IMG/VR virus record: IMGVR_UViG_3300017992_000023
Coordinates: 4,554 to 68,553 of that record
Source of the DNA: a virus
DNA length: 64,000 nucleotides
Direction: 5' to 3' (one strand)
The notes under the pieces are model-generated. The model made no database searches, was not told where the DNA came from, and was given only the letters and a program-made list of their open reading frames with translations. The translations under genes and the position numbers were made by a program. This document shows positions 2,543 through 64,000 of the stretch, in pieces (positions within the stretch are counted from its first letter, which is position 1; each line of letters starts with the position of its first letter).

Positions 2543-5500
2543 ATGACATTTGAAGAGTATCTTGCAACACTGTCTCCAAGCCCCACTGCTACTTGGCTGT
2601 TAGATGAAACGACTGGGCCGTCGGCAGATGATGCTGTCGGTACAATCGATGGCACATATACCAATGGTGTGTCGCTTAATAATGCCGATAATCCTCCGGG
2701 GATGGCAGGGGTATCTGCGGACTTTACTGCAGCCTCTTCCCACTATGTTGCTATTCCTGGCACTTCAACTGTTGTTAATCAATCTACTTTCTCTATTATT
2801 ATTTGGTTTAAGCCGGATTCGTCATCAGGCGATCTCATAACAAAAGGAGATACAGATCAGTATTCTTGGCGAGTAGGTTGGGACGGATCTGTTACCCAAT
2901 GGACTTCTCTGGGTGCAACCTACCGATCTTTTAGTCCTACATCCGCCAGCAAGCCGGTTACTGTAGGCGAGTGGAACATGCTCGTGGTAGAGTTCTCTAC
3001 TGCTGAGACTAAAGTGTATGTTAATGGAGAGCTTGGAGGATCCTCTACAGACACTAGCGGTACTTGGGCAACTAATACTACTTCTGATATCCAAATCAGC
3101 GGAAGAGCTGATGGGGGCGGAGGCGGCTATTTTGATGGCAAGGTTGCCCGAGTAGATTATATTCCAGGAACCTACACCGCTAGTGAGATTAAAGACCTCT
3201 ATCAAGCTGGAGCGGATGATGGGTCATATTTCTGGTATGCCGAAGATGCAACGAGGCCAGTAGGTTACTGGCGTTTTGGTGAGCCCACTGGTGATGAATT
3301 AATCACTAACGGTACTTTTGACTCTGATATATCTAGCTGGGGGACGATAGGGGGTATTGTCCAGTGGTCTTCGTCGGACGGCGGGACATTACGAATAAAC
3401 CGTAACGGTGCCGGATACAACGAACATGGGGCAAAGCAGGGAATTTCTACAGTTGTCGGAGAACGATACCGTGTATCGGTAGATGTAGTCGCGGCGACAT
3501 TTTACTCCCAAGTTCGTGTCTTGGCGGGAGACCCTGGTACAAATTGGTCTGGGGTCACAAACCTAACATCGGCAGCCTTTACTACTAATGGTCAGACAGG
3601 CACACTGACCGCTACTTTCACGGCTACGGGTACCACAACGTGGATAATCATGATTGTGGCTAACTCCCTGTTCGCAGAGTCCAGATTTGATAATGTTACT
3701 GTTACCCATCTCGCCTCGGATGAGGTAGGTACTTCTCATTTAGACTACAAAGGTAATCCTACCCTTAATGAACCAAGTTTGGTCGCTACGGAAAGTGACA
3801 CTGCTGTAACTTTTAACGGTACTACCCAATACGTAGACGCTGCTCACAAGTTAGGGGCCCTCATTGATGGAGCCTCCGCTGCAACTGTCTGTTTCTGGGC
3901 TAACTTCAATACTCTAGATAGCAGGTTTCAGCAAGTACTCAAAGTTGACGTAGGGAACAAGGATGGTATTGGTATTGTTCTTAGGGATCCGAATGAGGGT
4001 CTCTCATATATTGGCGGAAGATCACAGAATAGCGATGCTTACGATAGCCTAGAGTTTACCCCATCTATAACTGCTGGGAATACTTACTTCTTTGCCTGTG
4101 TATTTGACTACGCCAATGGTGAGGTCATTGTGTATATCGATGGGGCAGAAGCCGGTAGCGATGATACAATGACGTGGGGTAGTACCACATATGTCCATAC
4201 AGATACAGGAACAATAGATACCATCGGAACTACCCTGAGTTTATCTGGTCGGGACATGGACGGAACACTGGATGAGTTCGCGATCTATGACTACGCGTTA
4301 TCTTCTGCCGAGATTTCGGAGATGTATGCGCGGTCAGATGATGGGTCATATTTCTGGAAAGCCAAAAATGATCTAGACCCAGTAGCCTACTGGCGCTTGG
4401 GAGAGTCTACGGGGCCTACTGCCACTGACGAGTTAGGTAACTACGATCTGGCGTACCAGGATAGCCCGACACTTGGGCAAGACAGCCTACTGCCCAGCTC
4501 CGACGATACTTCGGTAGAGTTCAACGGGAGTAGCGAGTTCGCCATGCGTACGGGAACCGACTTCCGCCCATCCGACGCCCAAGGCAGTATTTCCGCGTGG
4601 TTCCGTTACGCTTCACTCGGTGGATCACTGGTCTGTCTAGGTGACAACATCGGGACGTTTTGGAAGCGCCTACAGATCGGTCTCGATAGGACTACCCAGA
4701 TTCCGTACTTGATTGCGGATTGTGACACTGCCGGGTTCACGAACCGCATAGATGGGCCTTCTGCCCCGTCCGCCAATGAGACACATCACATGGTGGTCAC
4801 CAGTAATGGTAGTGACTACCGCATGTACCTGGACGGGCAGGAGCTAACAACCAGTGTCAGCGAAGGGGCGGATGACGGTAAGTGGTTGAGTTCAATCACT
4901 GGTACCAAAGATAGGGTGACATTAGGGGCCGTGTGGGTAAGCTCCAGCGCCGCTGGTCACCTTGACGGTAATCTGGACGAAGTTTCGATATACGACTATG
5001 CACTGTCCCCCACTGATGTCGCTGACCTGTGGGCTCGCGGGGGGATCTCTGAAGAGTCTAATATTCCGGTACAGGCGATAGGTGTCACACCTCAAACCCC
5101 TCAAGCGGATACTTCTGAATCAGATACAGAGACTGCCAACCTCCCCACACAAAGTATAAGTATCACTACTCAGCCACCAGAAGCTGTAGTTACTAACGAT
5201 GCTGATATACCTGCAGAATCCATTAGTATCTCTGCACAAAATCCAGAGATCTCAGTATCAGTCGTAAAGCCGACTCCCCCGGTAATCCTAAGCGATGACG
5301 CTAGGAATGATAATGCTCTTTGGGTTGCACCTTTTGCTGAAGCTAACGTATATGAATCTATTGGCACCTATGAGAATACTTTCTCAGAGTTTAATACGCC
5401 GTCTTCTTTTACCCATCCAGAGGGGAATGCTTGGCATAACGGGTCTTTAGCGGATAACGGATGGTTTGATGTAGCTGACTACACTAACCTCTCCACGGTT

Positions 5501-8500
5501 ATCCGGTTTATCCCTAAGGCTAACAATATCAACGGTTTCCTTATGGGGGCCCGAGCTTCTGGAAATAACCGTTGGTATGCATTTCAGACTGGAACTAATA
5601 ATCTAGTCTTCTCAGCAGGCGGATCTAATGCTTGGGGGACAGCGTCAGCGCCAGTTCTTGTTAATCAAGTCAACACTCTTGTATATGTTAAGAGCGGAAC
5701 TACAGTTACTGCCTATCTTAACGGAGCTCAAGTAGCAACAACGTCCGGTATCAGCTTCTCCACTGGTTCTGGAGATATCCTTGGGATTATGTGTGACTTC
5801 CAGGGGAACGGATCACAAGAGTATAATGGATACATGCTATTTATGGGTATGTATGCCGAGGCCTTTGATCTCACAGATGCCCAAAGCTGGCACGACAATC
5901 CATACTCAACTTTACAGGAATCCTTCAATAATGCGTCAGATGCTCCGGCATCTTCTGTCGCACTAACAGCTGTAGCCGGGACTTTTGAAACTAGCGATAA
6001 CAATCAGGTCACTGGTGATGTAGCTAATATCCCAATGATCACCTCTCTGATGACGGCTACTGCTAGTGAGCCTCCAGAGAAGTCCGTCTACTCTAAATTG
6101 TGGACTAAGATCTTTACGCATAGAAACTATAACCTTCTGGAGCTTGAAGAGCAAGTCCAGTCCTCTGATCTTACATTCAACACATCAAACTGCTGTGATT
6201 GCGTAGCCAAAGCTCCTAGCATAATCCATCAAGACTCAGATGAGTCAGTAGTGTTTACCGGCGATGAGTATTTTATAGACTCTCAGGCAATGTTCATTAA
6301 CACGCAGACGGAACTGTCTGTTAGCCTGTGGTTCCAGCCAGATACTAATGGGGGTACTACTGGAAGCTTTGACACTGATGGAGAAGGCTTGGTCTGTTGT
6401 AATAACAGCTCTGATGTATTTGCTAATTTTGGTATTGTCTGGTTTAATAGCCGCATCCATGTGAGGGTCGCTAACCAAGACTATACTTCGGCTAATACAT
6501 ATACGGTCGGAGAGCCACACCTAGTTAATGTGATTTGGGATGATACTAATGGAACCTTCTACTTGAATGTAGACGGAGTCCAGGACACTCTGACCACTAG
6601 TGTTTTCTATTCATCTTTCTCTGATAATAGCTCTGTTGTTATTGGGCGTAGGACTCCGACTGCTAATGGATTCCGCGGTAAAATACAGCATATCGGCGTG
6701 GCCACTGATTTCACCGAAAGAAACAGTGACGGGTACCATTATCCGCGGCACAATGCATGGCTCTGGGCTAATGGAGCAGATATTGCTACTCCTCTGAATT
6801 ACCACCTAAAGAGCTACTGGAACAGTAACGATACAGACTATCTGAATCCGTTCGTCTATTTCCCAATGAACGATTCTTCTGGTACTCCAGCAGATGCGAC
6901 TGGAAACCATAGTGACTGGTGGACTGTTAATACTGGTTCTTTGACCTGGAATGAGTCTGTAGACATTGAAGGATACTCAGATACCTGTATGTCTATGCCA
7001 AATACCAGCGAGACTAAGATTACGATGTCTCCAAAGATGTTCATCAACTCTAATGTGGGTGATGACTATTTTGGGGATAATTTGTATTCCTCTTTCTCTT
7101 TCTGGTTTAGGATCAATGAAGTTGGAAGAGAGGGTACCGTTGAGATCGAATTCCCTCTAATTGAGTTTTCTCGTTATGGAGAGAATAACAATTTCAATAT
7201 CCAGTTTAGGTTGAATTATGCTAATGATCTGAAATTATTCGCAGAGAACGAATACTATGGGTCTGAACCTCTAGATATCGGGGTTTGGAATCATTTGGAA
7301 TTCCGTACTTGGGATCAACAAATCACCCTTACTGGACTAATGTGGTACCTCAATGGTGAGCTGGCGTTTAATAATTCATTCAGCAATGGGTTCAACTATG
7401 GTGGAGAGATTCTTGATATAATCATCAAGAACAGTAACTTCAATTCTAGTGGAGAGAAGGTTTCGTGTAGCGTAGACTTTATGAACTTTGCTATGGGTTA
7501 CAGGACCTCCAAGTTCCTTAATGATGAGAGCTCCTACCTTCAACGTTTTAGGGAGCTATATCAGTTAGAGGGCATCAACTATGATTATATTAACAATCTA
7601 GATAATACCTTTAACGAAGTAATCTTCGATTGCCAGACAGCTAATGGAACGTTTGTGCCTTATGGCGATTACCTAACGTTTTTCAATGATTATGGCAGCA
7701 TGTCTGTAACGCCTAATAATAGTCCCACGTATAGACAGACTAATGGTCCCATTCCAGGGATGCCTTATACAATCGGCCTGGATACATCTGCTGGTGAAGG
7801 CTTAACTATCGAGAATAACTCAGATACTGTTCCATATCGTCTTAACCTATGGTTTAAAGTGGACTCTTGGGTAGGAACAGATGATTCGCCTATTGTCTCT
7901 ATTATTGATACTGTAAACAGCGGTAGGAATGTTTATGTTGAAAGAGATTCCAGCCAGACTAATCAGATTCGCCTAAGAACCGAACAGGACTCTCAGACTG
8001 GGACGTCATTTGACATTACTCTTGGTCAGTGGAACTTATTGACTGTAGGTCATGATGGAACTGCAGACCCGACGCTCTATTTCAATGGGGTTGACCACTC
8101 CCTTACGCATACGTTCACTCAGACTTGCGGGAGAGAAAAGGTTGTTATCGGAAATGAGTCCTCCGATACTCACGGGTGGGATGGAGATGTAGCTCTTATA
8201 GTCTTGGCCCAGCCATCTCTTGCTGTTCACGATTCAGCCTATATTGAGGCATATGCAACTGACAAACTCCAGAGAGAGTGGGCTAAAACAGGAGTAGTCT
8301 ACGCTGATCCGTTCACTTCGGACTTCACCTTTGAGTTCTATCCAATCATATCTTTTACTGGATATAATGGTAGTTGGAATGGAACCCCTCTCCTTAGGAA
8401 TGAGGCAAGCCCTGTCTATCCGGCTGGGCCTAATATTGTACGTCTTGACTCCGATGGGGATAGCTACACTATCGATCCTATTGCAACTGGGGATGCATTT

Positions 8501-9895
8501 AACCATATTGAGTGCTATATTAAGATCAATTCATGGATCGATGCAGATGCCTACATCATGGGTATGGGAGAGAATGGCGCATCTGCTGATTGGGACATCG
8601 GGATCAAACGAGACGGCTCTACAGGGAATATCCAAGTTTTTTACCACAACATTGGTGGAACCCTCCTAGAAGGAACTTCTGTCGGTATTACGACTGGGGT
8701 CTGGCACCATGTAGCCCTTGTATATGCAGAAGACGCTTCTTTCAATCAGTACCTAGAGCTCTATATTGACGGAGTCCGAGTAGCCGTAGACACAAATCCC
8801 CTCAACCTCTACAGGACTGGTGGAGAGATCCAGGCTTTCTGGGGAAATGAGAGTGGTGCTATTAATATGAGCATGACTCTTGGAGCTGTTGGTCCTGAGA
8901 TCCTCCCGCCATTATCCGGGAGAATTGAGGCGCATTATGATGCATCCCTGGATCCTAGCAATACAAGCTTAGAGGAACCTCTGCAAGTTAATCTGGAAGC
9001 AGCAGAGATCCCATTCTGTAAGCCAGTATCTAACTGGGTCAATCAGCCCCCAGAAGGTGTAATTCTTAGTTCTATTAATCTTCCGATATCCACTCAATCT
9101 GGAGACTGGGTAACTACAGAGAAGCACCAGATTAATATGCTAGCATCCACCATCCCAGTGGAACCTAGGAGCCCTACTTGGGTTGCATCTGAAGTTGAGC
9201 TCTTTGAAGTTCTTATGAGCACTGTGAATATCCCTGTGTCTGTCGCAGATCCCGGGACATTCTATACGGCTAATAGGTGGTCTTCGACCCCTGCTTCTAC
9301 AATCCCAGTAGATACTCAGACTAATACTTGGACCTCCTTAGATTTTTCTCAGGTAGAGCTAAACTCTCTAAATGTGCCTTTGAATTCATTGGCTGTATCC
9401 TGGAGCACTCAGGAGAATAATCGTATTAACCTCCTGCTCAATACTGTTGAGGTAGATGAGAGGATCTTCCATAGAACGTTAGTAACTGAGCATACCTGGG
9501 CTGGTTTAGAGCCCGTCTCTTTGCCTATAGCTAGCAATGCACCTAGCGCAGTCGTGGAGGAGCATGTAGTAGTCTCTATGGATGCTGCAGGAATCCCTAT
9601 TACGGAGCTATCGCAAACTTTTGATGCTACTGAAAAGCACCAGATCTTATTGAATTCTCAAGTAATTCCGATGGTGGCGGCTAAGCAAAAGTGGAATGCA
9701 TCTAGGAACACTGACGATGTTGAGGTATATTCGACCACTCTCCAACTCCAGAGGGCCGAGAGACGCACCTCTTACATTACTAAAAGCGCCAAGTATTCCT
9801 CAGGAATCCATCGAGTTATTCGATATTCTTCCGGAATTGAGCGATTTGAGAGAAAAACTATGCGTATTAGGCGCACATTCAGCCTAAAAGCTTGA
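2543..9895 (+). CDS. Giant multi-LamG (concanavalin A-like) adhesin/fibre protein with CBM-like insert
   Basis: 2450 aa; repeated LamG signatures (YWRLGE/YWRFGE, YVNG/YIDG/YLDG, DGTLDEFAIYDYALS, WHHVALVY); CBM4/9-like ELITNGTFDSD...FDNVTV; repetitive C-terminal stalk. Confidence 0.8.
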   Translation: MTFEEYLATLSPSPTATWLLDETTGPSADDAVGTIDGTYTNGVSLNNADNPPGMAGVSADFTAASSHYVAIPGTSTVVNQSTFSIIIWFKPDSSSGDLITKGDTDQYSWRVGWDGSVTQWTSLGATYRSFSPTSASKPVTVGEWNMLVVEFSTAETKVYVNGELGGSSTDTSGTWATNTTSDIQISGRADGGGGGYFDGKVARVDYIPGTYTASEIKDLYQAGADDGSYFWYAEDATRPVGYWRFGEPTGDELITNGTFDSDISSWGTIGGIVQWSSSDGGTLRINRNGAGYNEHGAKQGISTVVGERYRVSVDVVAATFYSQVRVLAGDPGTNWSGVTNLTSAAFTTNGQTGTLTATFTATGTTTWIIMIVANSLFAESRFDNVTVTHLASDEVGTSHLDYKGNPTLNEPSLVATESDTAVTFNGTTQYVDAAHKLGALIDGASAATVCFWANFNTLDSRFQQVLKVDVGNKDGIGIVLRDPNEGLSYIGGRSQNSDAYDSLEFTPSITAGNTYFFACVFDYANGEVIVYIDGAEAGSDDTMTWGSTTYVHTDTGTIDTIGTTLSLSGRDMDGTLDEFAIYDYALSSAEISEMYARSDDGSYFWKAKNDLDPVAYWRLGESTGPTATDELGNYDLAYQDSPTLGQDSLLPSSDDTSVEFNGSSEFAMRTGTDFRPSDAQGSISAWFRYASLGGSLVCLGDNIGTFWKRLQIGLDRTTQIPYLIADCDTAGFTNRIDGPSAPSANETHHMVVTSNGSDYRMYLDGQELTTSVSEGADDGKWLSSITGTKDRVTLGAVWVSSSAAGHLDGNLDEVSIYDYALSPTDVADLWARGGISEESNIPVQAIGVTPQTPQADTSESDTETANLPTQSISITTQPPEAVVTNDADIPAESISISAQNPEISVSVVKPTPPVILSDDARNDNALWVAPFAEANVYESIGTYENTFSEFNTPSSFTHPEGNAWHNGSLADNGWFDVADYTNLSTVIRFIPKANNINGFLMGARASGNNRWYAFQTGTNNLVFSAGGSNAWGTASAPVLVNQVNTLVYVKSGTTVTAYLNGAQVATTSGISFSTGSGDILGIMCDFQGNGSQEYNGYMLFMGMYAEAFDLTDAQSWHDNPYSTLQESFNNASDAPASSVALTAVAGTFETSDNNQVTGDVANIPMITSLMTATASEPPEKSVYSKLWTKIFTHRNYNLLELEEQVQSSDLTFNTSNCCDCVAKAPSIIHQDSDESVVFTGDEYFIDSQAMFINTQTELSVSLWFQPDTNGGTTGSFDTDGEGLVCCNNSSDVFANFGIVWFNSRIHVRVANQDYTSANTYTVGEPHLVNVIWDDTNGTFYLNVDGVQDTLTTSVFYSSFSDNSSVVIGRRTPTANGFRGKIQHIGVATDFTERNSDGYHYPRHNAWLWANGADIATPLNYHLKSYWNSNDTDYLNPFVYFPMNDSSGTPADATGNHSDWWTVNTGSLTWNESVDIEGYSDTCMSMPNTSETKITMSPKMFINSNVGDDYFGDNLYSSFSFWFRINEVGREGTVEIEFPLIEFSRYGENNNFNIQFRLNYANDLKLFAENEYYGSEPLDIGVWNHLEFRTWDQQITLTGLMWYLNGELAFNNSFSNGFNYGGEILDIIIKNSNFNSSGEKVSCSVDFMNFAMGYRTSKFLNDESSYLQRFRELYQLEGINYDYINNLDNTFNEVIFDCQTANGTFVPYGDYLTFFNDYGSMSVTPNNSPTYRQTNGPIPGMPYTIGLDTSAGEGLTIENNSDTVPYRLNLWFKVDSWVGTDDSPIVSIIDTVNSGRNVYVERDSSQTNQIRLRTEQDSQTGTSFDITLGQWNLLTVGHDGTADPTLYFNGVDHSLTHTFTQTCGREKVVIGNESSDTHGWDGDVALIVLAQPSLAVHDSAYIEAYATDKLQREWAKTGVVYADPFTSDFTFEFYPIISFTGYNGSWNGTPLLRNEASPVYPAGPNIVRLDSDGDSYTIDPIATGDAFNHIECYIKINSWIDADAYIMGMGENGASADWDIGIKRDGSTGNIQVFYHNIGGTLLEGTSVGITTGVWHHVALVYAEDASFNQYLELYIDGVRVAVDTNPLNLYRTGGEIQAFWGNESGAINMSMTLGAVGPEILPPLSGRIEAHYDASLDPSNTSLEEPLQVNLEAAEIPFCKPVSNWVNQPPEGVILSSINLPISTQSGDWVTTEKHQINMLASTIPVEPRSPTWVASEVELFEVLMSTVNIPVSVADPGTFYTANRWSSTPASTIPVDTQTNTWTSLDFSQVELNSLNVPLNSLAVSWSTQENNRINLLLNTVEVDERIFHRTLVTEHTWAGLEPVSLPIASNAPSAVVEEHVVVSMDAAGIPITELSQTFDATEKHQILLNSQVIPMVAAKQKWNASRNTDDVEVYSTTLQLQRAERRTSYITKSAKYSSGIHRVIRYSSGIERFERKTMRIRRTFSLKA

Positions 9896-26607: not shown

Positions 26608-29600
26608 ATGGCCCTTACTGAAGCTCAACTTAAAGCTATTGAAGAGTATAATAAGTCTCGGACCTCTTCACCAAAGCTAGGTCAGACTCAAGACACTCGT
26701 TGGGAGTTTACCAAGGGTGTCTCTTCTGGTATTGATCAACTACAGGGCATGGGCTACGGCCTAGCTGCTCTTGCTGGTGATGCTATTGGGTCTGAAGGCT
26801 TACGTGAATTCGGCTTAGAGGGATATGAAAGGAATGTCCAAGAAGCCCAAGAGAATGCTCCTCGTATAGGTCGAGTTGAAGACGTAGAGAGTTTTGGGGA
26901 CTTCACTGATCTGGTCTCTGGTACGCTTGGCCAATTGGTTCCAACTGCAGCTGCTATGGCTACTGGCGGCGGCTTGGCTGGTATGGCTGTTAAGTCTGCA
27001 GCTAGAAATCAAATAACCAAGCTAGCTGGAGAAGCTCTCGCTAAGAGAGTCGCTCTGGCTCAAACTGCTGGTACCTTCGGAGCCTCTATGGGGATGGCAA
27101 CTGGCGGCATCTATGGCGATGTAGCTTCTGAAGGAGCTGAAGGGGCTGGTGCTATTCTGCCAGCTTTGGCTGGTGGTGCTGCGTCTGGCGCTTTAGATGC
27201 TCTCCCTATTCTACGTCTTGGTAAAGCTTTTGGGTTCGGTGGTGAGCTGAAGAAAAAGATTGTCGGGAAGATAGGCGAGCGCATTGCCAAAGAGGGCGGA
27301 AAGCAAGCATTCATCGAGGGTGGGACGGAAGCACTACAGTCTACTATTGAAGAAGCTACTAAAGCCTTTATCATGGAGCGAGGTCTCCCAGATGATATGG
27401 GATCTATTCTGCTTAACTCTGTTGTCGCTGGCGCTATCGGTGGTAGTGTTATGGGTGGCGCTACTGGTGCTATCGCTGGTGAGTCCCCTCCTCCTGGTCC
27501 CATCGAGAAAGCAGCTCAAGGGCTGGAGAAGCAAGTAGAAGAAGGTAAGAACCCAGTATCTGGTGAAGACTTTGGATTCTCTGATATTGCCGCTGCATCC
27601 AATCAACTGCAGAGTATTGACCAGCAAATCAAAGCAAACCCCAATGGCCCTATGGCTTCTAAGCTTCGTGAGAAAGCTGGTGTAGTCTTGGATGAGATCG
27701 CCAATAAATACATCCTGGGCGAGACCGATGCTGAGGGTAAACGAGTAGAGCCGATTAAGGTCGCCAAGATGGAAGCCGAGGATCTCATCAACTTCTACCG
27801 AGATTATGTCGGTGGAGGGGAGATCGAGATCGGCGGAGTAGCTCCCGAGACGAATGAGCAACGTGAAGCTCGACTAGCCGATGAAGAGGCTGCTCGTGTT
27901 GGTAAGGCTGAGCGTGAACAAGGCACTATGGCTGAGGGCCCTCAAAATATTGCTGAGGAAGAGCGTGAGGCTATGAACCAGCAGCTCAATGCAGAAGCTG
28001 CAGCCCAAGTAGAAGAAGAGCAAATCCTCCAGGCCGAGACTGAGAAACTAACTAACGCTATTGAGGAGAGAGCTGAGGAGATTGTTAATCCTACCCCAGA
28101 GCCAGAGGCTACCCCAGAGCCAAAGCCTGTTCCTGAGGTAGAACCGGAAGATCCTATCGAGCCAGAAGAAGTTGCGGAGACTGTTCAGGACACTAGTGAC
28201 GAGGATGTCATTCGTGAACTCCCTGAGTTTATCCCCCAAGAAGAAGCCCCGGAAGTAGCAGCGGAAGCTGAAGCACAAGCTGAGATCGCCACTGAGCGCC
28301 GAGAGCCTGAGATTGAGAAGGCTGAAGCTATTGCTGTAGAGGCTAAGATTGCTGAGCAGACTGAAAAGGACCTCGCAGAAAAAGTAGCTGAAGACAATCA
28401 GAAGCTGGAGGAAAGCCTTCAGGTAGTCAGAAATATGGCCTCCGAAGGAGCTTCTATCGAATCCCTTAACAAAGCTCTTGACCTTATCTCACAGAAGACT
28501 GGTAATCCAGATGCCCGTGGGATGGGCGAGGCTATTATCATCGAAGAGATGAAAAAGCGTCAGGAGAATTACAATAAGTGGGCTGAGTTCTACCGGTTGT
28601 CTGAGAAGCCAGTAGACTCTTTTACAGGTACTCCGCCGGTTGGTTATGTCTTTGGTAGCGATTATGTTCCTAGTAAGTTCTGGAATGCTCGTAGAGTAAT
28701 TAAACCTGATGAGTACATGGATGGTGTCCGTGAAGACATGGAGAAAAACTTCGGCCCCGATCCCTTTAAGAAGGAAGCTAGTAATCTTGCAGACAAAAAA
28801 GCAAAGACAGTTCAAGAACCTGCCCTTAGTGATTCTGAAGCGGCAGAAGGTGGCCAAGTCCAAGAAACGATGGAAGACCGAGACGCAGAGAGAGCGCGAC
28901 GCCTTCCAGAGCTAACAGTCCCGCAGATGCGTCAGCTTCTGAAGGAAGCCAATGTCCCTGGACGCTCTAAGTTCAAGAAGAAACCTGATCTCGTTAATGC
29001 TGTCCTTGAGAACATTAATGGTCTTGAGACGACTATTGATGAAATGCTTTCGTTTAAGAAGGGCGCTAAAAAGCCTACAGCTAAGGCCACCCTAAAGAAG
29101 CAAAAAGAAGCTAGGGATGCACTAGAGGCTAAGCGCGAGCGTGAAGCTGCTCTGGCTGATGACCCTCTAGCACAAGCTGCTATGGAAGAGGGGATCGATA
29201 TCCCCGAGGTTACCAGAGACGGTGAGAATATCGGTAAAGAAGAGCTCCGCAAGATGGAGCAAGAGATGCTTGACCTTGAACGGGGCCAGGATGACCTAGC
29301 TGGAACAGGACTTGAAGATTTCGGATCTTATGATGAGGATCCATTTGAGTTCAGTGTGACTGAAATGGGTAAAGGGATGGAGTTCACCAAAGCAAAAAAT
29401 ATTGCTAAGGGAGAACTAAGACAAGTCCTTGAGTCCTCTGAATACAACGAACATCAGAAAGAAGTCGCTGAGCGGATGATCAGGTACATTGATGAGAAAC
29501 AGATGATCCCTGACTATAAGCTCTATATAGACATGCAGTCTGATGCAGCTCGTGATGCTATGGGGCTAAATGCTCCTAGTGGGAGCCTTCCCCAGCTAGA

Positions 29601-32600
29601 GGGGAGGGAGGTCCTACTTAATGACAATCCGCTTTTCAAGTACAGACTTACGGGACAGTGGAAGAAACGAGCGGGGCGGTATGTTCTCCAGGGTATTGAT
29701 CAGAAGACCTCACAAACTGTTTGGACTACTGCAGGCTCGTTGGGCCTTAACTCTGAGGTGGATGCCCTTATTCGTCGTTCTGAGATGAAGGTTATCAGAG
29801 ATTTCGAGAAGAGTCCCGCTCGTACTGCTGAAAGCTTTTCCCGCTCCATTCTGGAGCAACGTCTACAGTTCGGTGTCCGCGGAAACTATATCCCTGGTGA
29901 CACTGAGTTCGCTAAGAGATACGAAAAGCGCATCAAAGAACTGGAGAAAGATTTCTACAACTGGGTATCCAAGCTGAAGATTCCATCGGGTGAGATTAAG
30001 TTTGTCTTCATCAAAGATATGAGTGATGCCCCAGATAGTCTAGGTCGCAAAGCCACTCTTCCTGTAGAGCTTGGCTACGGTGGAATGCATAGAAGTAAGC
30101 CCGGTGCTCCTACCGAAATCTACATGAACCCACATAACTTTGTTCTGTATCAAGACTACAAGAAAGAATTCTTGGGCACCTTCCTGCATGAACTAGTAGG
30201 TCATCATGGTCTTCGCAGGCTCTTCGATTCTATCGGATTCAATTACGCTAACGGCGGTATCTCTAAGTATGACGATTTTCTTGATCGTATTGCTGACACT
30301 AATAGAGAGATTCTAGAGAAGGCTCTGGATCTCCGTTTCCGTTGGGATAAGATTGACCTGAAAGGTGGTCGACTAAAGGGTCAGAAGGGCTCTGGTATCC
30401 GCCCTTATACAGTAGTGGGTCAGGATGGGAAGACTAAAGAGACTATCTATGTCTCCAATGAAGCACGTCGTCGTCTCCTAGACGAATATATTGCTGAGCG
30501 AGCTAAAGAGTTCAGTGATCCTAAGCTCCGTGAGAAATGGACGAAGGGTGAAGAGAGCCTCATGAAAAGGTTGAGGACCTGGGTTAAACACAGACTTCGC
30601 ACTATCTTTGGAGAGCATAAAATCACCGATGAAGATCTGATGGCTATGGTTGCTCAATCCTATGAGAACCTATATGGCCAGGGCGTTGCTTTGCCTAATG
30701 CAAAGGGCAAGAAGAAGCTGATGGTCAAGCCTCGTCTTGAAACTCTTGCCCAAATGACTGAGCAAGATGTCGGGTATGATCAGTTTTCTCCAGCTGAATC
30801 CTATAATGAAGCAGCAGATAATGGAGATCTTCCTCCGCGCACTAAAGAGGAGGCCTACCAAGAACGTTTGGAAGCTCTAAAGCAAGCAGCTGCAGAGGGT
30901 ATGAGTATTAAAGAGATCACAGCTGCTGATGCTGTAATGAATAGTGGGTACGCTGATGTCACCGAGAATGCTTTCACTTCCTATGGAATCAAGGTATGGC
31001 GTAAGTTCCGTAATGAGTTCACCCCAATGTACTCTTTCTTCAATGCTGAGGGAACCCTTCGTAACCATAAGATGAAGGAGGCAGTAGCCCAGAAAGTCTT
31101 GGGAAATATTGAGCGTACCAATGTTCTGGCTCGTAAAGCCCAGAAGGTCCTGAAAAACCTGTCTCAGCAACAGAAGCGAGTTGTGATGGAGTTTATGCGG
31201 AGTGACCGTATCAATGTTGAGGATATCAATCTAACCCAGAGCCAAAAAGACGCACTAGTATCTTATAAAGAAGAGATCAGTAAGTTCGGTGAGCGTCTGG
31301 TACGGATTGGTAAACTAGATCCTGAGACTTACCTCGCGAACCAAGGAAAGTATCTACCAGCTCGATACATGTTGTATGCATCTCGTGCTATGGGTTCTGG
31401 GCGTAAAGCTTCTCCCTTAACTTACCTGATGAAGAAAGCTCCAGAGCTGACTGCTCGTGATAAAGCTATGCTTGGTGAATTGCAGAACCCAGAGTTCATT
31501 ATTCCCGAGGCTCTCAGCCTGATTGGTCGTGACGTTGCTCTCCTGGAGTATACACACCTAATAGGGAAACTCTCTTCAGAGAAGGATCTCGGATGGGTGC
31601 TTGGAGACAATAAGATCGAACAGTACAATACTGGTAAAAAGATTACTATTGATCGTGCAGAAACACTGGTAGAGAGCTACCGAAAGATTCTGGAAGATGT
31701 ACGCAGAGGTGATCTGACCTATGAACCAGAACATGTAAAAGCGCTAGAAGAGGAGTTGGCACATACTGAGAATGAACTCAAGAAGTACAATGAAGCTCTA
31801 GAGGCCAAGATTAAGTCAGAGGTTGGCCTGCCCCTTGACCAACCATTCCCGGCTGATGAGTTCAAGAAGGCTGTGTCTCATGCCTATCGAAAGATGCCTA
31901 TGGAACGAGGCTATGGAGATCTGGCTGGGCGTTGGGTACGTAAAGAGATCTATGATGAGTTCACAGAGACCACCTTTGCTATCGAGGATATGAATGGTCT
32001 AACTAAAGCCCTGGCTCCTGGCGGTAAGATGGACAGAGCTAACCAGCTTTGGAAACTGTCGAAGGTCGTCTTGAACCCACCTTCTTGGTTCCGTAATGCT
32101 ATCGGTAACTTTGTATTGCTGGATATAGCCTCTCCTACTAATTCTCTGAAACTCATGAAGATGTGGGTCGAAGAGTTAGTCAAGGTCTATAAGGGCAAGC
32201 CCTCTGAGTATTGGGCAGCCGCTCATGAACATGGTCTATTCGGAACTACCTATAGCTCCAGCGAGATCTACCTACTCTCTGAGATGACCAATGCCACTCA
32301 CGCAGCTAAAGTCGCTAGAGAGATGCAGAATCTAGAGGGATCCGTAAAGTCTCAATGGCTTAAAATTCAGGGGATGATGCTAGCCACTGGAGAGGCTGCG
32401 GCTAATTTCTATGGTGGACTAGAAGGTGTTTCCAAGGCTGTAGCCATGAGGGATTACATTGAGCGCTGGACTCGTGAGAACGGTGTAGATAGCCTGAAGA
32501 GTCTTGACCAAGCTCAACGTGATGCTGTTATGAACAGGTCTGTTATCCACGCTAATGAGGCTATCTTTGATTACTCCAATGTGACTGCTTGGTTTAAGGA

Positions 32601-33504
32601 CCTGCGTCGTAATGCTTTCGGTGCTCCATTCATTACATATACAATGAAGGCACTCCCAGCTGTTGTTCGTGGGCTCTCTAGGAACCCTCAGAAGTTTATC
32701 AAATATGCCGCTCTCCCATCTATTATGAGCGCCTATGCTGTCAGTTCTTTAGGAGATCTGACTCCCGAGGAGATAGATGAGATTGAGAAGAACATGCCTA
32801 AGTGGATGCGAGAGAAGTCCTCTGTGTACTTGTGGCCGACTAAAGATGCCAACGGTAAGATCGTACCCGTAGACTTTGGGTACTACTTCCCTTGGGCTCC
32901 TTGGCAAGATGTAGCTACTAAGAGTATCGGTAAGTTCCAGTACGCTGAGACTGGTGAAGACTATGCTTACGGAGCAGTCTCTGCAGCTTGGGATGGAGCT
33001 AATAGTCTTGGCTTACTCGGAGGTCCTATCCCAACCACTATTGTATCTCTTCTGTCCAATAAAGATACCTTTATGGGTAGGGAGATCGTAAGTGCAGGGG
33101 ACTCCGCAGGCACCGCGCTCGCTAAGATCTGGAACTACGGCTACGCTATGATGGCCCCTCCATTCTTGACTAATCACGGTGTAGCTGGTAAACTTATGGA
33201 TCATTATGACATGAGTATCTTAGGGCTTCCCAATAACAATGTTGACATTGAAGGGAACCAAAAAGAGACAATGTCTCAGTCCATACTCCGCGGTCTAGGT
33301 GTAAGCAGCTATGCAACTACAGTCAAACAGACTAAGTATCGTCGCGCTCAAGAGCACAAAGCTGAACTAAGAAAACTACAAACTGCAAGATCTAAGGTTG
33401 TAAAGAACCAGGGACTCTCTAAACAACAGAAAGTTAGAGAAATTCAAGATATCAACAGACGAATGATCCTGCTCAACAGAAAATACAGTGAGACTACGAA
33501 ATGA
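26608..33504 (+). CDS. Large polyvalent internal virion/DNA-ejection protein
   Basis: 2298 aa; G/A-rich hydrophobic N-terminal helices, acidic Pro-rich linker, Rho-N/HeH-like motif (ELTVPQMRQLLKEANVPGRSK), zincin-like HELVGH motif, helical C-terminus. Confidence 0.75.
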   Translation: MALTEAQLKAIEEYNKSRTSSPKLGQTQDTRWEFTKGVSSGIDQLQGMGYGLAALAGDAIGSEGLREFGLEGYERNVQEAQENAPRIGRVEDVESFGDFTDLVSGTLGQLVPTAAAMATGGGLAGMAVKSAARNQITKLAGEALAKRVALAQTAGTFGASMGMATGGIYGDVASEGAEGAGAILPALAGGAASGALDALPILRLGKAFGFGGELKKKIVGKIGERIAKEGGKQAFIEGGTEALQSTIEEATKAFIMERGLPDDMGSILLNSVVAGAIGGSVMGGATGAIAGESPPPGPIEKAAQGLEKQVEEGKNPVSGEDFGFSDIAAASNQLQSIDQQIKANPNGPMASKLREKAGVVLDEIANKYILGETDAEGKRVEPIKVAKMEAEDLINFYRDYVGGGEIEIGGVAPETNEQREARLADEEAARVGKAEREQGTMAEGPQNIAEEEREAMNQQLNAEAAAQVEEEQILQAETEKLTNAIEERAEEIVNPTPEPEATPEPKPVPEVEPEDPIEPEEVAETVQDTSDEDVIRELPEFIPQEEAPEVAAEAEAQAEIATERREPEIEKAEAIAVEAKIAEQTEKDLAEKVAEDNQKLEESLQVVRNMASEGASIESLNKALDLISQKTGNPDARGMGEAIIIEEMKKRQENYNKWAEFYRLSEKPVDSFTGTPPVGYVFGSDYVPSKFWNARRVIKPDEYMDGVREDMEKNFGPDPFKKEASNLADKKAKTVQEPALSDSEAAEGGQVQETMEDRDAERARRLPELTVPQMRQLLKEANVPGRSKFKKKPDLVNAVLENINGLETTIDEMLSFKKGAKKPTAKATLKKQKEARDALEAKREREAALADDPLAQAAMEEGIDIPEVTRDGENIGKEELRKMEQEMLDLERGQDDLAGTGLEDFGSYDEDPFEFSVTEMGKGMEFTKAKNIAKGELRQVLESSEYNEHQKEVAERMIRYIDEKQMIPDYKLYIDMQSDAARDAMGLNAPSGSLPQLEGREVLLNDNPLFKYRLTGQWKKRAGRYVLQGIDQKTSQTVWTTAGSLGLNSEVDALIRRSEMKVIRDFEKSPARTAESFSRSILEQRLQFGVRGNYIPGDTEFAKRYEKRIKELEKDFYNWVSKLKIPSGEIKFVFIKDMSDAPDSLGRKATLPVELGYGGMHRSKPGAPTEIYMNPHNFVLYQDYKKEFLGTFLHELVGHHGLRRLFDSIGFNYANGGISKYDDFLDRIADTNREILEKALDLRFRWDKIDLKGGRLKGQKGSGIRPYTVVGQDGKTKETIYVSNEARRRLLDEYIAERAKEFSDPKLREKWTKGEESLMKRLRTWVKHRLRTIFGEHKITDEDLMAMVAQSYENLYGQGVALPNAKGKKKLMVKPRLETLAQMTEQDVGYDQFSPAESYNEAADNGDLPPRTKEEAYQERLEALKQAAAEGMSIKEITAADAVMNSGYADVTENAFTSYGIKVWRKFRNEFTPMYSFFNAEGTLRNHKMKEAVAQKVLGNIERTNVLARKAQKVLKNLSQQQKRVVMEFMRSDRINVEDINLTQSQKDALVSYKEEISKFGERLVRIGKLDPETYLANQGKYLPARYMLYASRAMGSGRKASPLTYLMKKAPELTARDKAMLGELQNPEFIIPEALSLIGRDVALLEYTHLIGKLSSEKDLGWVLGDNKIEQYNTGKKITIDRAETLVESYRKILEDVRRGDLTYEPEHVKALEEELAHTENELKKYNEALEAKIKSEVGLPLDQPFPADEFKKAVSHAYRKMPMERGYGDLAGRWVRKEIYDEFTETTFAIEDMNGLTKALAPGGKMDRANQLWKLSKVVLNPPSWFRNAIGNFVLLDIASPTNSLKLMKMWVEELVKVYKGKPSEYWAAAHEHGLFGTTYSSSEIYLLSEMTNATHAAKVAREMQNLEGSVKSQWLKIQGMMLATGEAAANFYGGLEGVSKAVAMRDYIERWTRENGVDSLKSLDQAQRDAVMNRSVIHANEAIFDYSNVTAWFKDLRRNAFGAPFITYTMKALPAVVRGLSRNPQKFIKYAALPSIMSAYAVSSLGDLTPEEIDEIEKNMPKWMREKSSVYLWPTKDANGKIVPVDFGYYFPWAPWQDVATKSIGKFQYAETGEDYAYGAVSAAWDGANSLGLLGGPIPTTIVSLLSNKDTFMGREIVSAGDSAGTALAKIWNYGYAMMAPPFLTNHGVAGKLMDHYDMSILGLPNNNVDIEGNQKETMSQSILRGLGVSSYATTVKQTKYRRAQEHKAELRKLQTARSKVVKNQGLSKQQKVREIQDINRRMILLNRKYSETTK

Positions 33505-62576: not shown

Positions 62577-62845
62577 TAATTGGCAATCTCCTGCCATACA
62601 TCGTGTCCAATCTTACGGACGGCTACCTTGCCTGCCATACCGTACACTTTACCATCGTGCTTGCTGGTATGGATCTTGGACACTCTGGACAGGTAATGCA
62701 CCCGCTGGGAGCTGGGCGCATAGATCACTTGGTCGTCACGCCTCAGCGTACCAACACGGTGCTTAGAACGCTCCGACCAATCCTTGAACGCAGCCCCGCG
62801 GTTACTAGAGGGACGGATCATGTAGTTAGTAGTCAGACGGCTCAT
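62573..62845 (-). CDS. Basic hypothetical early protein
   Basis: 90 aa, AGGA RBS. Confidence 0.55.
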   Translation of the reverse strand: MSRLTTNYMIRPSSNRGAAFKDWSERSKHRVGTLRRDDQVIYAPSSQRVHYLSRVSKIHTSKHDGKVYGMAGKVAVRKIGHDVWQEIANY

Positions 62846-62856
62846 GTCCTACCCCC

Positions 62857-63438
62857 TTATGCAGCCAAGGCTACGAGATCGCCCTGCTCGTCCAGCTTGC
62901 TCATGCGCTGGGCAACCCTAGCTTGCAGCTTGTCGTCACCCTTGAGGGCGAGGATCTCAGCCACAATGCGAGGGCCAAACACTTCTTGCAGCATGGACTC
63001 GGTTACGTCACCCATCAAGAAACCTTCGGCATACTTGCGCTTCATGGATTCCAGCGGATCAGCCCAAGGCTTTGCCACCTGCATCGAGCGAGCAACCTTG
63101 TACCACGGGGTATCCTTGCAGCCAGCCAGCCAAGCGGTATCATAGCTGGTTTTCTTGACCGTCTTGACGTTGCACTTGTTGCTGTCGTCATTCAGGATAA
63201 CACGCAGTGAGCACACATCCTCCAACCACTTGACAATGGCATGGAAGCGAGCCGATTCGGGATTCCGGGCATGCATGAAGCGAACAGCCCATGCAATACC
63301 AGTCGTGTTAAAGTCGGACTTAACAAAGTCAATCAGACCGACGATAAGCGCCTTTTGGATAGCGTAATCAGACCGCTCCCCCGCAATGAATGCTTTGGAG
63401 AATTTCTTGGCAAAGACTGTTTCAGGCATAATAGACAT
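62857..63438 (-). CDS. Early hypothetical protein (first gene downstream of the hammerhead)
   Basis: 193 aa; no obvious Shine-Dalgarno upstream. Confidence 0.6.
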   Translation of the reverse strand: MSIMPETVFAKKFSKAFIAGERSDYAIQKALIVGLIDFVKSDFNTTGIAWAVRFMHARNPESARFHAIVKWLEDVCSLRVILNDDSNKCNVKTVKKTSYDTAWLAGCKDTPWYKVARSMQVAKPWADPLESMKRKYAEGFLMGDVTESMLQEVFGPRIVAEILALKGDDKLQARVAQRMSKLDEQGDLVALAA

Positions 63439-63488
63439 ACGAAAAGACCACAGGCTTATTAGGCGAATGGCACCTCAATGGAAGAATT

Positions 63489-63541
63489 AGCTGTTTCGCC
63501 CTTTTGGGCTCATCAGTACCAACACACATTGGTAAACAGCT
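63489..63541 (-). ncRNA. Type III hammerhead ribozyme
   Basis: - strand AGCUG-UU^UACCAA-UGUGUG-UUGGUA-CUGAUGA-GCCC-AAAA-GGGC-GAAA-CAGCU: full core, three perfectly paired stems, GUU cleavage triplet. Confidence 0.9.
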
Positions 63542-63543
63542 TA

Positions 63544-63655
63544 GGGACTATATTGCCGCCCCGTACCGGCTCGCGGAAACCAACCATCGTCTCGCTGTGT
63601 TAGTGGGTTCAATCACTAATGATGGACGGCGATCAATACGCCTGACTTTAATCCC
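63544..63655 (-). ncRNA. Multibranch structured RNA immediately 5' of the hammerhead
   Basis: GGGAUUA/UAGUCCC closing stem, UAUUG(A)UCGCC/GGCGGCAAUA, CCAUC/GAUGG, UUAGUG/CACUAA. Confidence 0.45.
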
Positions 63656-63962
63656 AAGAATCTTACAGTTCTATGTTGCTTTATGTAGCCTTAGTGCCTA
63701 TTGTGAGAGACGCATAGCATGACCATCCTACCTACTTACACCCTAGGAGGTATGGCGCTTATGTAGACGAACTGGCTAAATGTTCCAACATCAACAGCTT
63801 GCACCTGTCTAGCTGGTAGCCTAGCGCGCCTGTTTTCCATATCACAGACATTGCTACAGCAAAGGAAATAAAGGGTTTCCTGACCATTATTTGTAACGTG
63901 GGGCTGGACTCCGAATTGCACGACCTAACTTTCGTATAGATAACGGTTCTATAGCGTTGGAC

Positions 63963-63971
63963 AATATAGCA
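63963..63971 (-). promoter_or_regulatory. Possible extended -10 promoter for the early leader
   Basis: TGC-TATATT on the - strand; no clear -35. Confidence 0.3.
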
Positions 63972-64000
63972 GGCATACCCGTAGATATACACTGCTCGCC

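What the first reader, a model, noticed from the sequence alone, without database searches (positions are those of the whole stretch)
63489..63541. Consensus type III hammerhead ribozyme in the leader of the early transcript
Seen on the - strand: stem III AGCUG/CAGCU, GUU triplet, stem I UACCAA/UUGGUA (loop UGUGUG), CUGAUGA, stem II GCCC/GGGC (loop AAAA), GAAA. Predicted cleavage is between 63535 and 63534, 96 nt before the ATG at 63438. A loop I starting with U and a loop II ending in A fit the known tertiary contact of fast natural hammerheads. Known: hammerheads occur in phage genomes but their roles are largely unknown. Inference: cleavage gives the early mRNA a 5'-OH end, a poor substrate for 5'-end-dependent RNase E decay, and releases an upstream RNA with a 2',3'-cyclic phosphate.
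Basis: partly seen in the sequence, partly recalled or inferred. Interest (0 to 1): 0.85.

Follow-up and report, generated by a model that had tools for sequence, protein, structure and literature searches.

The report
Phage type III hammerhead ribozyme
A textbook self-cutting hammerhead RNA motif sits just upstream of the first gene of one gene arm of an uncultured 68.5-kb phage; it is real and belongs to a common phage subclass, so it is a new example of a known thing, not a new kind.

Summary
On the - strand, 63541..63489 form a complete type III hammerhead. All core positions are consensus, the three stems (6, 6 and 4 pairs) are all Watson-Crick, and the cut is predicted after U63535, 96 nt before the ATG at 63438.

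It is not chance. 0 of 2000 dinucleotide shuffles of the record give an equal motif. A covariance model built only from 30 hammerheads of other viral contigs hits this site alone, at 66.4 bits and E 1.6e-17.

Rfam RF00008 scores it 21.9 bits against a cut-off of 48.5. That cut-off also misses 0 of 17 same-subclass sites tested.

The same loop pair (UGUGUG / AAAA) occurs 70 times on 69 viral contigs, with fully covarying stems.

The ribozyme is sporadic. It is absent from five related phages and from two contigs carrying the same downstream gene.

The most likely role is co-transcriptional cutting of the leader, which gives the message a 5'-OH end buried in a hairpin. Expression and cleavage are untested.

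This scan has noted phage hammerheads many times before. Verdict: new member of a known kind, modest interest.

The parts
63489..63541 (-). Complete type III hammerhead ribozyme motif (53 nt)
   Evidence: Sequence. Scanner. Model R1: 66.4 bits, E 1.6e-17, full length. MFE fold.
63536..63541 (-). Stem III 5' strand, AGCUGU (U16.1 = 63536)
   Evidence: Pairs with 63494-63489. All 6 pairs are Watson-Crick.
63535..63535 (-). Cleavage-site nucleotide U17. The predicted cut is on its 3' side, between 63535 and 63534.
   Evidence: Position follows from the hammerhead numbering. U at this position is rare: 1 of 43 unique subclass members and 0 of 49 in the first set.
63517..63534 (-). Stem I hairpin: 6 bp UACCAA/UUGGUA with loop UGUGUG
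   Evidence: It becomes the 5'-terminal hairpin of the cleaved RNA in the fold.
63510..63516 (-). Core strand CUGAUGA (C3-A9)
   Evidence: Matches the consensus core quoted from PMC3088659.
63498..63509 (-). Stem II hairpin: 4 bp GCCC/GGGC with loop AAAA
63489..63497 (-). Core GAA (G12-A14), then stem III 3' strand ACAGCU (A15.1 = 63494)
63549..63576 (-). Block conserved with the leaders of two contigs that carry the same first gene. It holds GGTAC-N6-GCAATATA and ends 8 nt before the hammerhead. Function unknown; possibly a promoter or binding site.
   Evidence: The exact pattern is present once in the window and once each in L130 and L131, upstream of the homologous gene. Local alignment to L131 scores 26, reached by 4 of 300 shuffles. 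To L130 it scores 22, reached by 51 of 300.
63457..63486 (-). Leader block downstream of the hammerhead, shared with L131
   Evidence: Local alignment score 29, reached by 0 of 300 shuffles. Not significant against L130.
62857..63438 (-). First ORF of the leftward arm (193 aa, no known family), 50 nt after the hammerhead's 3' end
   Evidence: ORF list. 8 homologues of 190-195 aa at 56-70% identity. No PHROG match. No Pfam match above cut-off. No Shine-Dalgarno-like run within 20 nt of the ATG.

Best explanation
This is a genuine cis-acting type III hammerhead ribozyme of a common phage subclass. The subclass has a 6-bp stem I closed by loop UGUGUG and a 4-bp stem II closed by loop AAAA.

Proposed mechanism:
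1. The hammerhead lies in the untranslated leader of the leftward gene arm (small unknown genes, then a peptide-ligase cluster, then replication genes). It is most likely transcribed with that arm.
2. As the RNA emerges it folds. The loop I and loop II contact locks the active form, and the chain cuts itself after U63535.
3. The upstream piece leaves with a 2',3'-cyclic phosphate.
4. The message keeps a 5'-OH end whose first base is already paired in the stem I hairpin, followed by a 96-nt leader.

The likely benefit is a fixed, promoter-independent and protected 5' end for the first message, that is, leader processing or insulation.

Shown: the motif, its statistical reality, its subclass membership, its position and its orientation.

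Inferred: transcription, cleavage in vivo, and the stabilising effect.

The ribozyme was gained or lost sporadically. It is not a conserved part of this phage group.
For: Motif and statistics:
- Full consensus core and all-Watson-Crick stems.
- The only hit of the independent model R1 in the window and in the whole record: 66.4 bits, E 1.6e-17.
- 0 of 2000 shuffles hold an equal motif.
- The hammerhead fold is the MFE both alone and in a 241-nt context.

Subclass:
- A pattern fixing only the two loops, the core and the spacing finds 70 sites on 69 viral contigs, 43 of them unique.
- Of the 43 unique sites, 43 have a 6-bp stem I, 43 have U16.1, 43 have a non-G at position 17, and 42 have a 4-bp stem II.
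- With our sequence added (44 rows), 98.8% of cells pair against 67.6% in shuffles. 12 of 15 pairs show changes on both sides, and stem I pairs in 100% of cells.

Context of that subclass:
- 57 of 70 sites lie outside same-strand ORFs.
- The next same-strand ORF starts a median of 21.5 nt downstream; 47 of 62 start within 50 nt, against 12% of control positions.
- The first, broader set of 62 sites behaves likewise.

Our site: co-oriented with every gene from 63438 down to 35303 and 50 nt before a real gene.

After the cut, the new 5' end is paired in a hairpin.

Precedent: in haloviruses HF1/HF2 a hammerhead lies 13 nt before the first early gene, and the mapped 5' end lies within 3 nt of the cut site (PMC3088659, passages read).
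Against: - No expression or cleavage data: no RNA run holds the stretch.
- No sigma-70-like promoter was found in 62800-64000, so the start of transcription relative to the ribozyme is unknown.
- Rfam RF00008 is below its cut-off: 21.9 against 48.5 bits.
- The ribozyme is absent from 5 of 5 related phage genomes (capsid identity 38-68%). It is also absent from 2 of 2 contigs with the same first gene. It is therefore dispensable for this gene arrangement.
- The cleavage-site base U17 is the rarest allowed choice: 1 of 43 and 0 of 49.
- Our site is atypical for its subclass. It has a 50-nt rather than roughly 21-nt spacer to the start codon, and no gene ends just upstream.
- The protective effect of a 5'-OH end is recalled from E. 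coli literature. The host here is unknown.
Confidence: 0.6

Rival explanations
1. An active or once-active hammerhead that arrived by recombination as a passenger, a sporadically spreading small RNA module. It is neutral or nearly so for this phage and has no selected role in early expression.
For: - Absent from 5 of 5 related phages.
- Absent from 2 of 2 contigs with the same first gene, whose leader blocks flank the site. In our phage 62 nt, including the 53-nt ribozyme, stand where L131 has 22 nt.
- The same loop pair occurs in phages that share no detectable protein with ours. Only 1 weak tblastn hit was found among 69 loci. 0 of 5 records matched the portal protein.
Against: - The motif is flawless: no mispair in 16 pairs and no core change. 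That argues for recent gain or ongoing selection.
- Across the subclass the stems covary and the position before start codons is strongly non-random. The module is therefore selected for function wherever it sits.
Confidence: 0.22
2. The ribozyme's main job is to make the 3' end (2',3'-cyclic phosphate) of an upstream non-coding RNA or small-gene message encoded in 63542-64000. It may act as one half of a ribozyme-flanked cassette.
For: - About 460 nt without a convincing gene lie upstream on the same strand.
- L130 and L131 share conserved non-coding sequence upstream of the motif.
- Phage hammerheads often come in pairs or triplets that flank short units (PMC3088659; L009, L071, L015).
Against: - Only one hammerhead exists in the whole record.
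- No Rfam family, twister-sister included, matches 63540-64000 at E up to 10.
- The 465-nt upstream RNA folds no better than its shuffles (z 0.14, 51 of 100 as stable).
- The upstream ORFs (61-77 aa) have no family match and no tblastn match in L130 or L131.
Confidence: 0.12
3. After cutting itself, the single leader hammerhead acts in trans on matching sites before other early genes, as two earlier reports of this scan proposed for other phages.
For: Near-matches to the 13-nt substrate strand (up to 2 mismatches) number 11 against 4.2 +/- 1.95 expected, and 0 of 100 shuffles reach 11.
Against: - Stem I is closed by its own loop (type III), so no free arm exists to bind a substrate on that side.
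- The 10 other near-matches are scattered over both arms.
- 7 of the 10 lie antisense to the local genes, and none sits directly before an early gene start.
Confidence: 0.02
4. A chance look-alike with no ribozyme activity.
For: Rfam's curated threshold is not reached.
Against: - 0 of 2000 shuffles hold an equal motif.
- E 1.6e-17 with an independent model.
- Both loops are identical to a covarying 43-member subclass.
Confidence: 0.02

Closest known systems
Type III hammerhead ribozyme (Rfam RF00008, clan CL00010)
   Same: Same core, same three-stem junction, same topology (stems I and II closed, stem III open), and the NUH cleavage triplet.
   Different: Scores 21.9 bits against the curated 48.5, because the Rfam model misaligns stems I and III. 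The whole UGUGUG/AAAA phage subclass behaves this way: 0 of 17 sites reach the cut-off.
Hammerheads of phages and prophages between or before genes (Perreault et al. 2011, PMC3088659; passages read)
   Same: Intergenic, co-oriented with neighbouring genes, consensus core, function unproven. The paper proposes processing of long phage transcripts.
   Different: Those are often clustered, with 2-3 flanking single genes. Here there is one ribozyme in the whole record, at the head of a gene arm rather than between genes.
HHphage of haloviruses HF1/HF2 (described in PMC3088659; passage read)
   Same: A hammerhead in the leader of the first gene of an early polycistronic transcript. There the mapped 5' end lies within three nucleotides of the cut site.
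   Different: HHphage is a structural variant that needs high Mg2+ and lies 13 nt from the start codon, in an archaeal virus. Ours is a canonical compact type III, 50 nt from the start codon, in a phage whose relatives infect Proteobacteria.
RiboJ-type synthetic ribozyme insulators (recalled from memory: Lou et al. 2012; seen here only as the search listing, text not read)
   Same: A type III hammerhead placed in a 5' leader, so that self-cleavage removes promoter-derived sequence and leaves a defined 5'-OH end that begins in a hairpin.
   Different: RiboJ is engineered from a plant satellite RNA ribozyme with an added hairpin. The resemblance is functional only, and no sequence comparison was made.

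Membership tests
Hammerhead ribozyme | Consensus core: C3 U4 G5 A6 N7 G8 A9, G12 A13 A14, A15.1-U16.1, H17 (criteria quoted from PMC3088659) | tested here: met
   CUGAUGA at 63516-63510, GAA at 63497-63495, A63494 paired with U63536, and U63535 as H17.
Hammerhead ribozyme | No mispair next to the core (10.1-11.1, 1.1-2.1, 15.1-16.1) and no multiple mispairs in short stems (same source) | tested here: met
   G-C, U-A and A-U next to the core. All 16 pairs are Watson-Crick.
Hammerhead ribozyme, type III | Stems I and II closed by loops, with the chain ends in stem III | tested here: met
   Order on the - strand: III-5', site, hairpin I, core, hairpin II, GAA, III-3'.
Rfam RF00008 Hammerhead_3 | Score at or above the curated gathering threshold (48.5 bits) | tested here: not met
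   21.9 bits, E 0.036 in a 501-nt search. No hit in the whole window at gathering thresholds. The threshold also misses 0 of 17 same-subclass sites and finds 1 hit in 12 loci with at least 14 scanner hammerheads. The failure therefore reflects the model.
Phage type III hammerheads (own model R1, built from 30 sequences of other viral contigs, ours excluded) | Full-length significant match to sequence and structure | tested here: met
   66.4 bits, E 1.6e-17, model positions 1-51 of 51, the single hit in the window and the record. The E-value is rough because calibration was shortened.
UGUGUG / AAAA loop subclass of phage type III hammerheads | 6-bp stem I with purines at the last two 5' positions, 6-nt loop UGUGUG, 4-bp stem II, 4-nt loop AAAA, and covarying stems | tested here: met
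   Our sequence fits every column. 44 rows give 98.8% paired cells and 12 of 15 pairs with compensatory change. Pairs 11-20 and 12-19 are only G-C or A-U.
Hammerhead ribozyme | Loop I and loop II tertiary contact needed for fast cleavage at physiological Mg2+ | tested here: inconclusive
   U at the first loop-I base and A at the last loop-II base are at least 90% conserved in 30 other phage hammerheads, and both are present here. No 3-D model or assay was made. The figure that defines the contact classes in PMC3088659 is a supplement I could not see.
Hammerhead ribozyme | Site-specific self-cleavage giving 2',3'-cyclic phosphate and 5'-OH ends | not testable with these tools
   Needs a transcription or cleavage assay. 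No RNA reads are available.

The most novel reading that the evidence does not exclude
The conserved block that ends 8 nt before the ribozyme (GGTAC-N6-GCAATATA) is the promoter of the leftward arm. The hammerhead would then be the very first thing transcribed.

Self-cleavage would clip off only about the first 14 nucleotides together with the 5'-triphosphate. Every primary transcript of the arm would become a 5'-OH RNA capped by a hairpin.

That would be a ribozyme-made 5' end that escapes 5'-end-dependent decay, or any host system that reads 5'-triphosphate or 5'-monophosphate ends. This phage would have acquired it as a plug-in module that its relatives lack.
Probability: 0.15. Interest if true: 0.6.

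Novelty: new member of a known kind. Interest (0 to 1): 0.3.

Why it matters
The biological role of the thousands of phage hammerheads is still unproven.

This site offers a clean natural comparison. There is one flawless ribozyme at the head of a gene arm, set between leader blocks that one contig (L131) shares on both sides and a second (L130) shares upstream only; both contigs carry the same first gene and lack the ribozyme.

A knock-out of the core (G5A or G12A), or a transplant of the ribozyme into a ribozyme-free leader, would directly measure what a 5' leader hammerhead does to message level and stability.

There is also a practical point. The curated Rfam threshold misses this whole subclass of compact phage hammerheads, so standard annotation under-counts them.

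Tried and rejected
- **RNA evidence.** No RNA holder was listed among the public runs.
- **Laying contigs.** Contigs of the three DNA runs showed no sequence differences and no joints. Only 2 of 3 runs cover the ribozyme, X2 only its first few bases. This gives no information on variation or on circularity.
- **Close relatives of the downstream gene in viral contigs.** The single protein found none and the alignment A2 found none.
- **Relatives through two other arm genes.** None found.
- **Genome contigs with A2.** None found.
- **DNA search of the end region against phage records.** No match.
- **Terminal repeats or end overlap of the record.** None found with k = 15 or larger.
- **L009, L071 and L079.** These share the stem III sequence and looked like homologues. 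However, 0 of 5 records tried match our portal protein, and no ORF of ours matches their loci. They are treated as unrelated carriers.
- **Second ribozyme or structured RNA upstream.** No Rfam match at E up to 10, and the fold has z 0.14.
- **Another ribozyme at the same spot in L130 or L131.** None at E up to 1, and no R1 hit.
- **Phage single-subunit RNA polymerase (PF00940).** No match, but the control genomes were silent too, so this says nothing.
- **Trans-cleavage sites.** Rejected (and the type III topology).
- **Literature on function.** Searches gave listings only and nothing on the function of leader hammerheads in phages. I did not read those papers.
- **Unseen supplements.** Figures S4-S6 of PMC3088659 may already show this loop subclass.

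Full report
**What the window is.**
The window is the last 64,000 bases of a 68,553-base IMG/VR virus record. The record is classed as linear with a CheckV completeness of 100. I found no terminal repeat or end overlap.

Structural genes lie on the + strand from the left: terminase, portal, major head protein and two giant virion proteins. The - strand from 63438 down to 35303 carries, in order:
- small unknown ORFs;
- a gamma-glutamyl cyclotransferase / amidotransferase / ATP-grasp / amidoligase cluster;
- primase-helicase, DNA polymerase, an SSB fusion and an exonuclease;
- thymidylate synthase and ribonucleotide reductase.

By major head protein, the nearest named relatives are:
- Acidovorax phage AP1, 63%;
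- an uncultured podovirus, MW202615.1, 68% over 80% of the protein;
- Pseudomonas phages KPP25 and phiR18, 48%;
- Aeromonas phage phiA008, 38%.

MW202615.1 has the same two-arm layout.

**The observation.**
Read on the - strand, 63541..63489 are, base for base:
- stem III 5' strand;
- U17;
- hairpin I (6 bp, loop UGUGUG);
- CUGAUGA;
- hairpin II (4 bp, loop AAAA);
- GAA;
- stem III 3' strand.

Every position that Perreault et al. require is met: the core, the pairs next to the core, and the absence of multiple mispairs (criteria read in PMC3088659). The cut would fall between 63535 and 63534, 96 nt before the ATG at 63438.

**Is it more than chance?**
- My scanner finds no other type III or type I hammerhead of comparable quality on either strand of the record.
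- 0 of 2000 dinucleotide-preserving shuffles of the record contain a type III motif with stems of at least 6/4/6 pairs. 2 of 2000 contain one of at least 5/4/5.
- With very lenient limits, 45 of 400 shuffles had some hit. The quality of the motif is what counts, not its mere presence.
- The 61-nt fold is the hammerhead fold (z -3.6). It persists in a 241-nt context.

**Family membership.**
Rfam finds nothing in the window at gathering thresholds. In a local search RF00008 gives 21.9 bits against a cut-off of 48.5, with stems I and III misaligned.

I calibrated this failure in two ways:
- In 12 viral loci holding at least 14 scanner-defined consensus type III hammerheads, the threshold recovered one.
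- In 17 loci each holding a hammerhead with our exact loops, it recovered none.

I therefore built a model (R1) from 30 type III hammerheads of other viral contigs, leaving ours out. It hits the window once, at 63540..63490 on the - strand, full length, with 66.4 bits and E 1.6e-17. That is also the only hit in the whole record. The 30 training sequences had been chosen by a scanner that demands pairing, so their own covariation count is circular, and I do not lean on it.

**An unbiased subclass test.**
I used a pattern that fixes only loop I (UGUGUG), the core, loop II (AAAA) and the spacing. It leaves stems I and III and the inner three pairs of stem II free. It finds 70 sites on 69 viral contigs.

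Of the 43 unique sequences:
- 43 have a complete 6-bp stem I;
- 43 have U16.1;
- 43 have a non-G at position 17 (C 39, A 3, U 1);
- 42 have a 4-bp stem II;
- 41 have at least 4 of 5 stem III pairs.

Aligned with ours (44 rows, no gaps), the results are:
- 98.8% of cells pair, against 67.6% in shuffles and 32-47% when partners are slid;
- 12 of 15 pairs show changes on both sides;
- stem I pairs in all cells, with all six pairs covarying.

Our sequence fits a further regularity: the last two stem I pairs always carry a purine on the 5' side.

Our ribozyme is therefore a plain member of a widespread, strongly constrained phage subclass. Its one unusual trait is U at the cleavage site, seen in 1 of 43 here and 0 of 49 in the first set.

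**Context in other phages.**
For the 70 subclass sites:
- 57 lie outside same-strand ORFs of 50 aa or more, whereas 62% of control positions lie inside one;
- the previous same-strand ORF ends a median of 28 nt upstream;
- the next starts a median of 21.5 nt downstream, with 47 of 62 within 50 nt against 12% of controls.

The broader first set of 62 sites behaves the same way.

The usual setting is thus a short spacer between two co-oriented genes, with the ribozyme body left at the 5' end of the downstream message. Some phages carry two or three in a row (L009, L071, L079, L015). This matches what Perreault et al. describe for prophages.

**Context here.**
Our site differs from that usual setting:
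- It is the only hammerhead in the genome.
- No gene ends just upstream. The nearest - strand ORFs, of 61-77 aa, end about 195 nt or more before it. They have no family match.
- The spacer to the start codon is 50 nt, with no Shine-Dalgarno-like run.

The downstream ORF is a real gene, with eight homologues of 190-195 aa at 56-70% identity. It has no known family.

Two metagenome contigs carry this gene (L130, L131). Neither has a hammerhead or any other Rfam ribozyme.

Both do share an exact motif, GGTAC-N6-GCAATATA. In our phage it ends 8 nt before the ribozyme, and it occurs nowhere else in the window. L131 also shares a block just downstream of the ribozyme (score 29, reached by 0 of 300 shuffles). 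The upstream block scores 26, reached by 4 of 300 shuffles. For L130 these local scores are not significant on their own.

Between the two blocks L131 has 22 nt where we have 62, of which 53 are the ribozyme.

None of five related phage genomes has a match to R1 at E up to 1, other than an 11-bit fragment.

My reading is that the ribozyme is a lineage-specific insertion into, or a loss from the others of, a partly conserved leader.

**How it most likely works.**
- **Shown:** a perfect cis hammerhead, co-oriented with the arm, in its leader.
- **Inferred:** it is transcribed with the arm and cuts itself. The upstream RNA leaves with a cyclic phosphate. The message starts with a 5'-OH whose first base is already paired in the stem I hairpin.

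From recalled E. coli work (Mackie 1998; Celesnik et al. 2007; Emory et al. 1992; not read here), both a 5'-OH and a 5'-terminal hairpin slow 5'-end-dependent RNase E attack. The relatives' hosts are Proteobacteria, which use RNase E. In Firmicutes a 5'-OH end can instead invite RNase J1 (recalled: Collins et al. 2007), so the direction of the effect depends on an unknown host.

The closest natural precedent is the HF1/HF2 halovirus hammerhead before the first early gene, where the mapped 5' end lies within three nucleotides of the cut site. The closest engineered analogue is the RiboJ insulator (recalled).

**What speaks against the reading.**
- There is no evidence of transcription or cleavage.
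- No promoter-like site was found.
- Relatives do without the ribozyme.
- U17 is the rarest permitted base.
- A passenger origin cannot be excluded.

The idea that the ribozyme matures an upstream RNA, or forms a cassette with a second ribozyme, finds no support. There is no Rfam match at E up to 10 in 63540-64000, and the fold is no better than shuffles. Trans-cleavage is excluded by the closed stem I. The excess of near-matches to the substrate strand (11 against 4.2) shows no relation to gene starts.

**Novelty and score.**
Hammerheads in phages are in print (PMC3088659). This scan has noted them very often: 1396 findings in at least 930 genomes hold the search words.

This is a new member of a known kind. 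It has three modest points of interest:
- its position at the head of a gene arm;
- its insertion between shared leader blocks;
- the fact that the curated Rfam threshold misses its whole subclass.

Interest: 0.3.

Noticed in passing
window 63549-63576 (- strand); L130:2650-2668; L131:398-416: A single-copy motif, GGTAC-N6-GCAATATA, is conserved just upstream of the same first gene in three otherwise very different phage contigs. Its end (..ATATAG) recalls, from memory only, the 3' end of T7-type promoters. No single-subunit RNA polymerase was detected, but that search was uninformative.
   Followed up: partly
L009:2155-4139, L071:1664-3311, L079:4034-5462: Three complete 60-65 kb viral records with terminal repeats each carry two or three type III hammerheads within about 2 kb. 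These share our stem III sequence and similar loops (UGAGUG / AAAA or AAGA). They show no match to our portal protein.
   Followed up: partly
alignment A4, columns 11-12 with 19-20: In the UGUGUG/AAAA subclass the two stem I pairs next to the loop are only G-C or A-U, with the purine always on the 5' side (44 of 44 rows). This suggests that the constrained loop-contact region extends into the stem.
   Followed up: no
17 loci and 12 loci: Rfam RF00008 at its gathering score recovers 0 of 17 and 1 of at least 14 clear consensus type III hammerheads in viral contigs. Standard annotation badly under-counts compact phage hammerheads.
   Followed up: yes
window 63967: Contigs of two different public DNA runs (X1, X2) both stop at 63967, 33 bases before the record's end. 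This could mark a genome end, a repeat boundary or an assembly branch.
   Followed up: no
window 63439-63460 (- strand) vs L131:470-494: The first gene of the arm has no Shine-Dalgarno-like run before its ATG, whereas its homologue in L131 has AGGAG 9 nt before the start.
   Followed up: no
window, 11 sites listed: Near-matches (up to 2 mismatches) to the 13-nt hammerhead substrate strand are more frequent than in shuffles: 11 against 4.2 +/- 1.95. They show no positional logic. Unexplained, possibly oligonucleotide bias.
   Followed up: partly
window 2543-9895 and 26608-33504 (+ strand): Two giant virion-arm proteins. The 2450-aa protein has seven Laminin_G_3 stretches. The 2298-aa protein has no Pfam family and only a weak tail-fibre PHROG match.
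   Followed up: no
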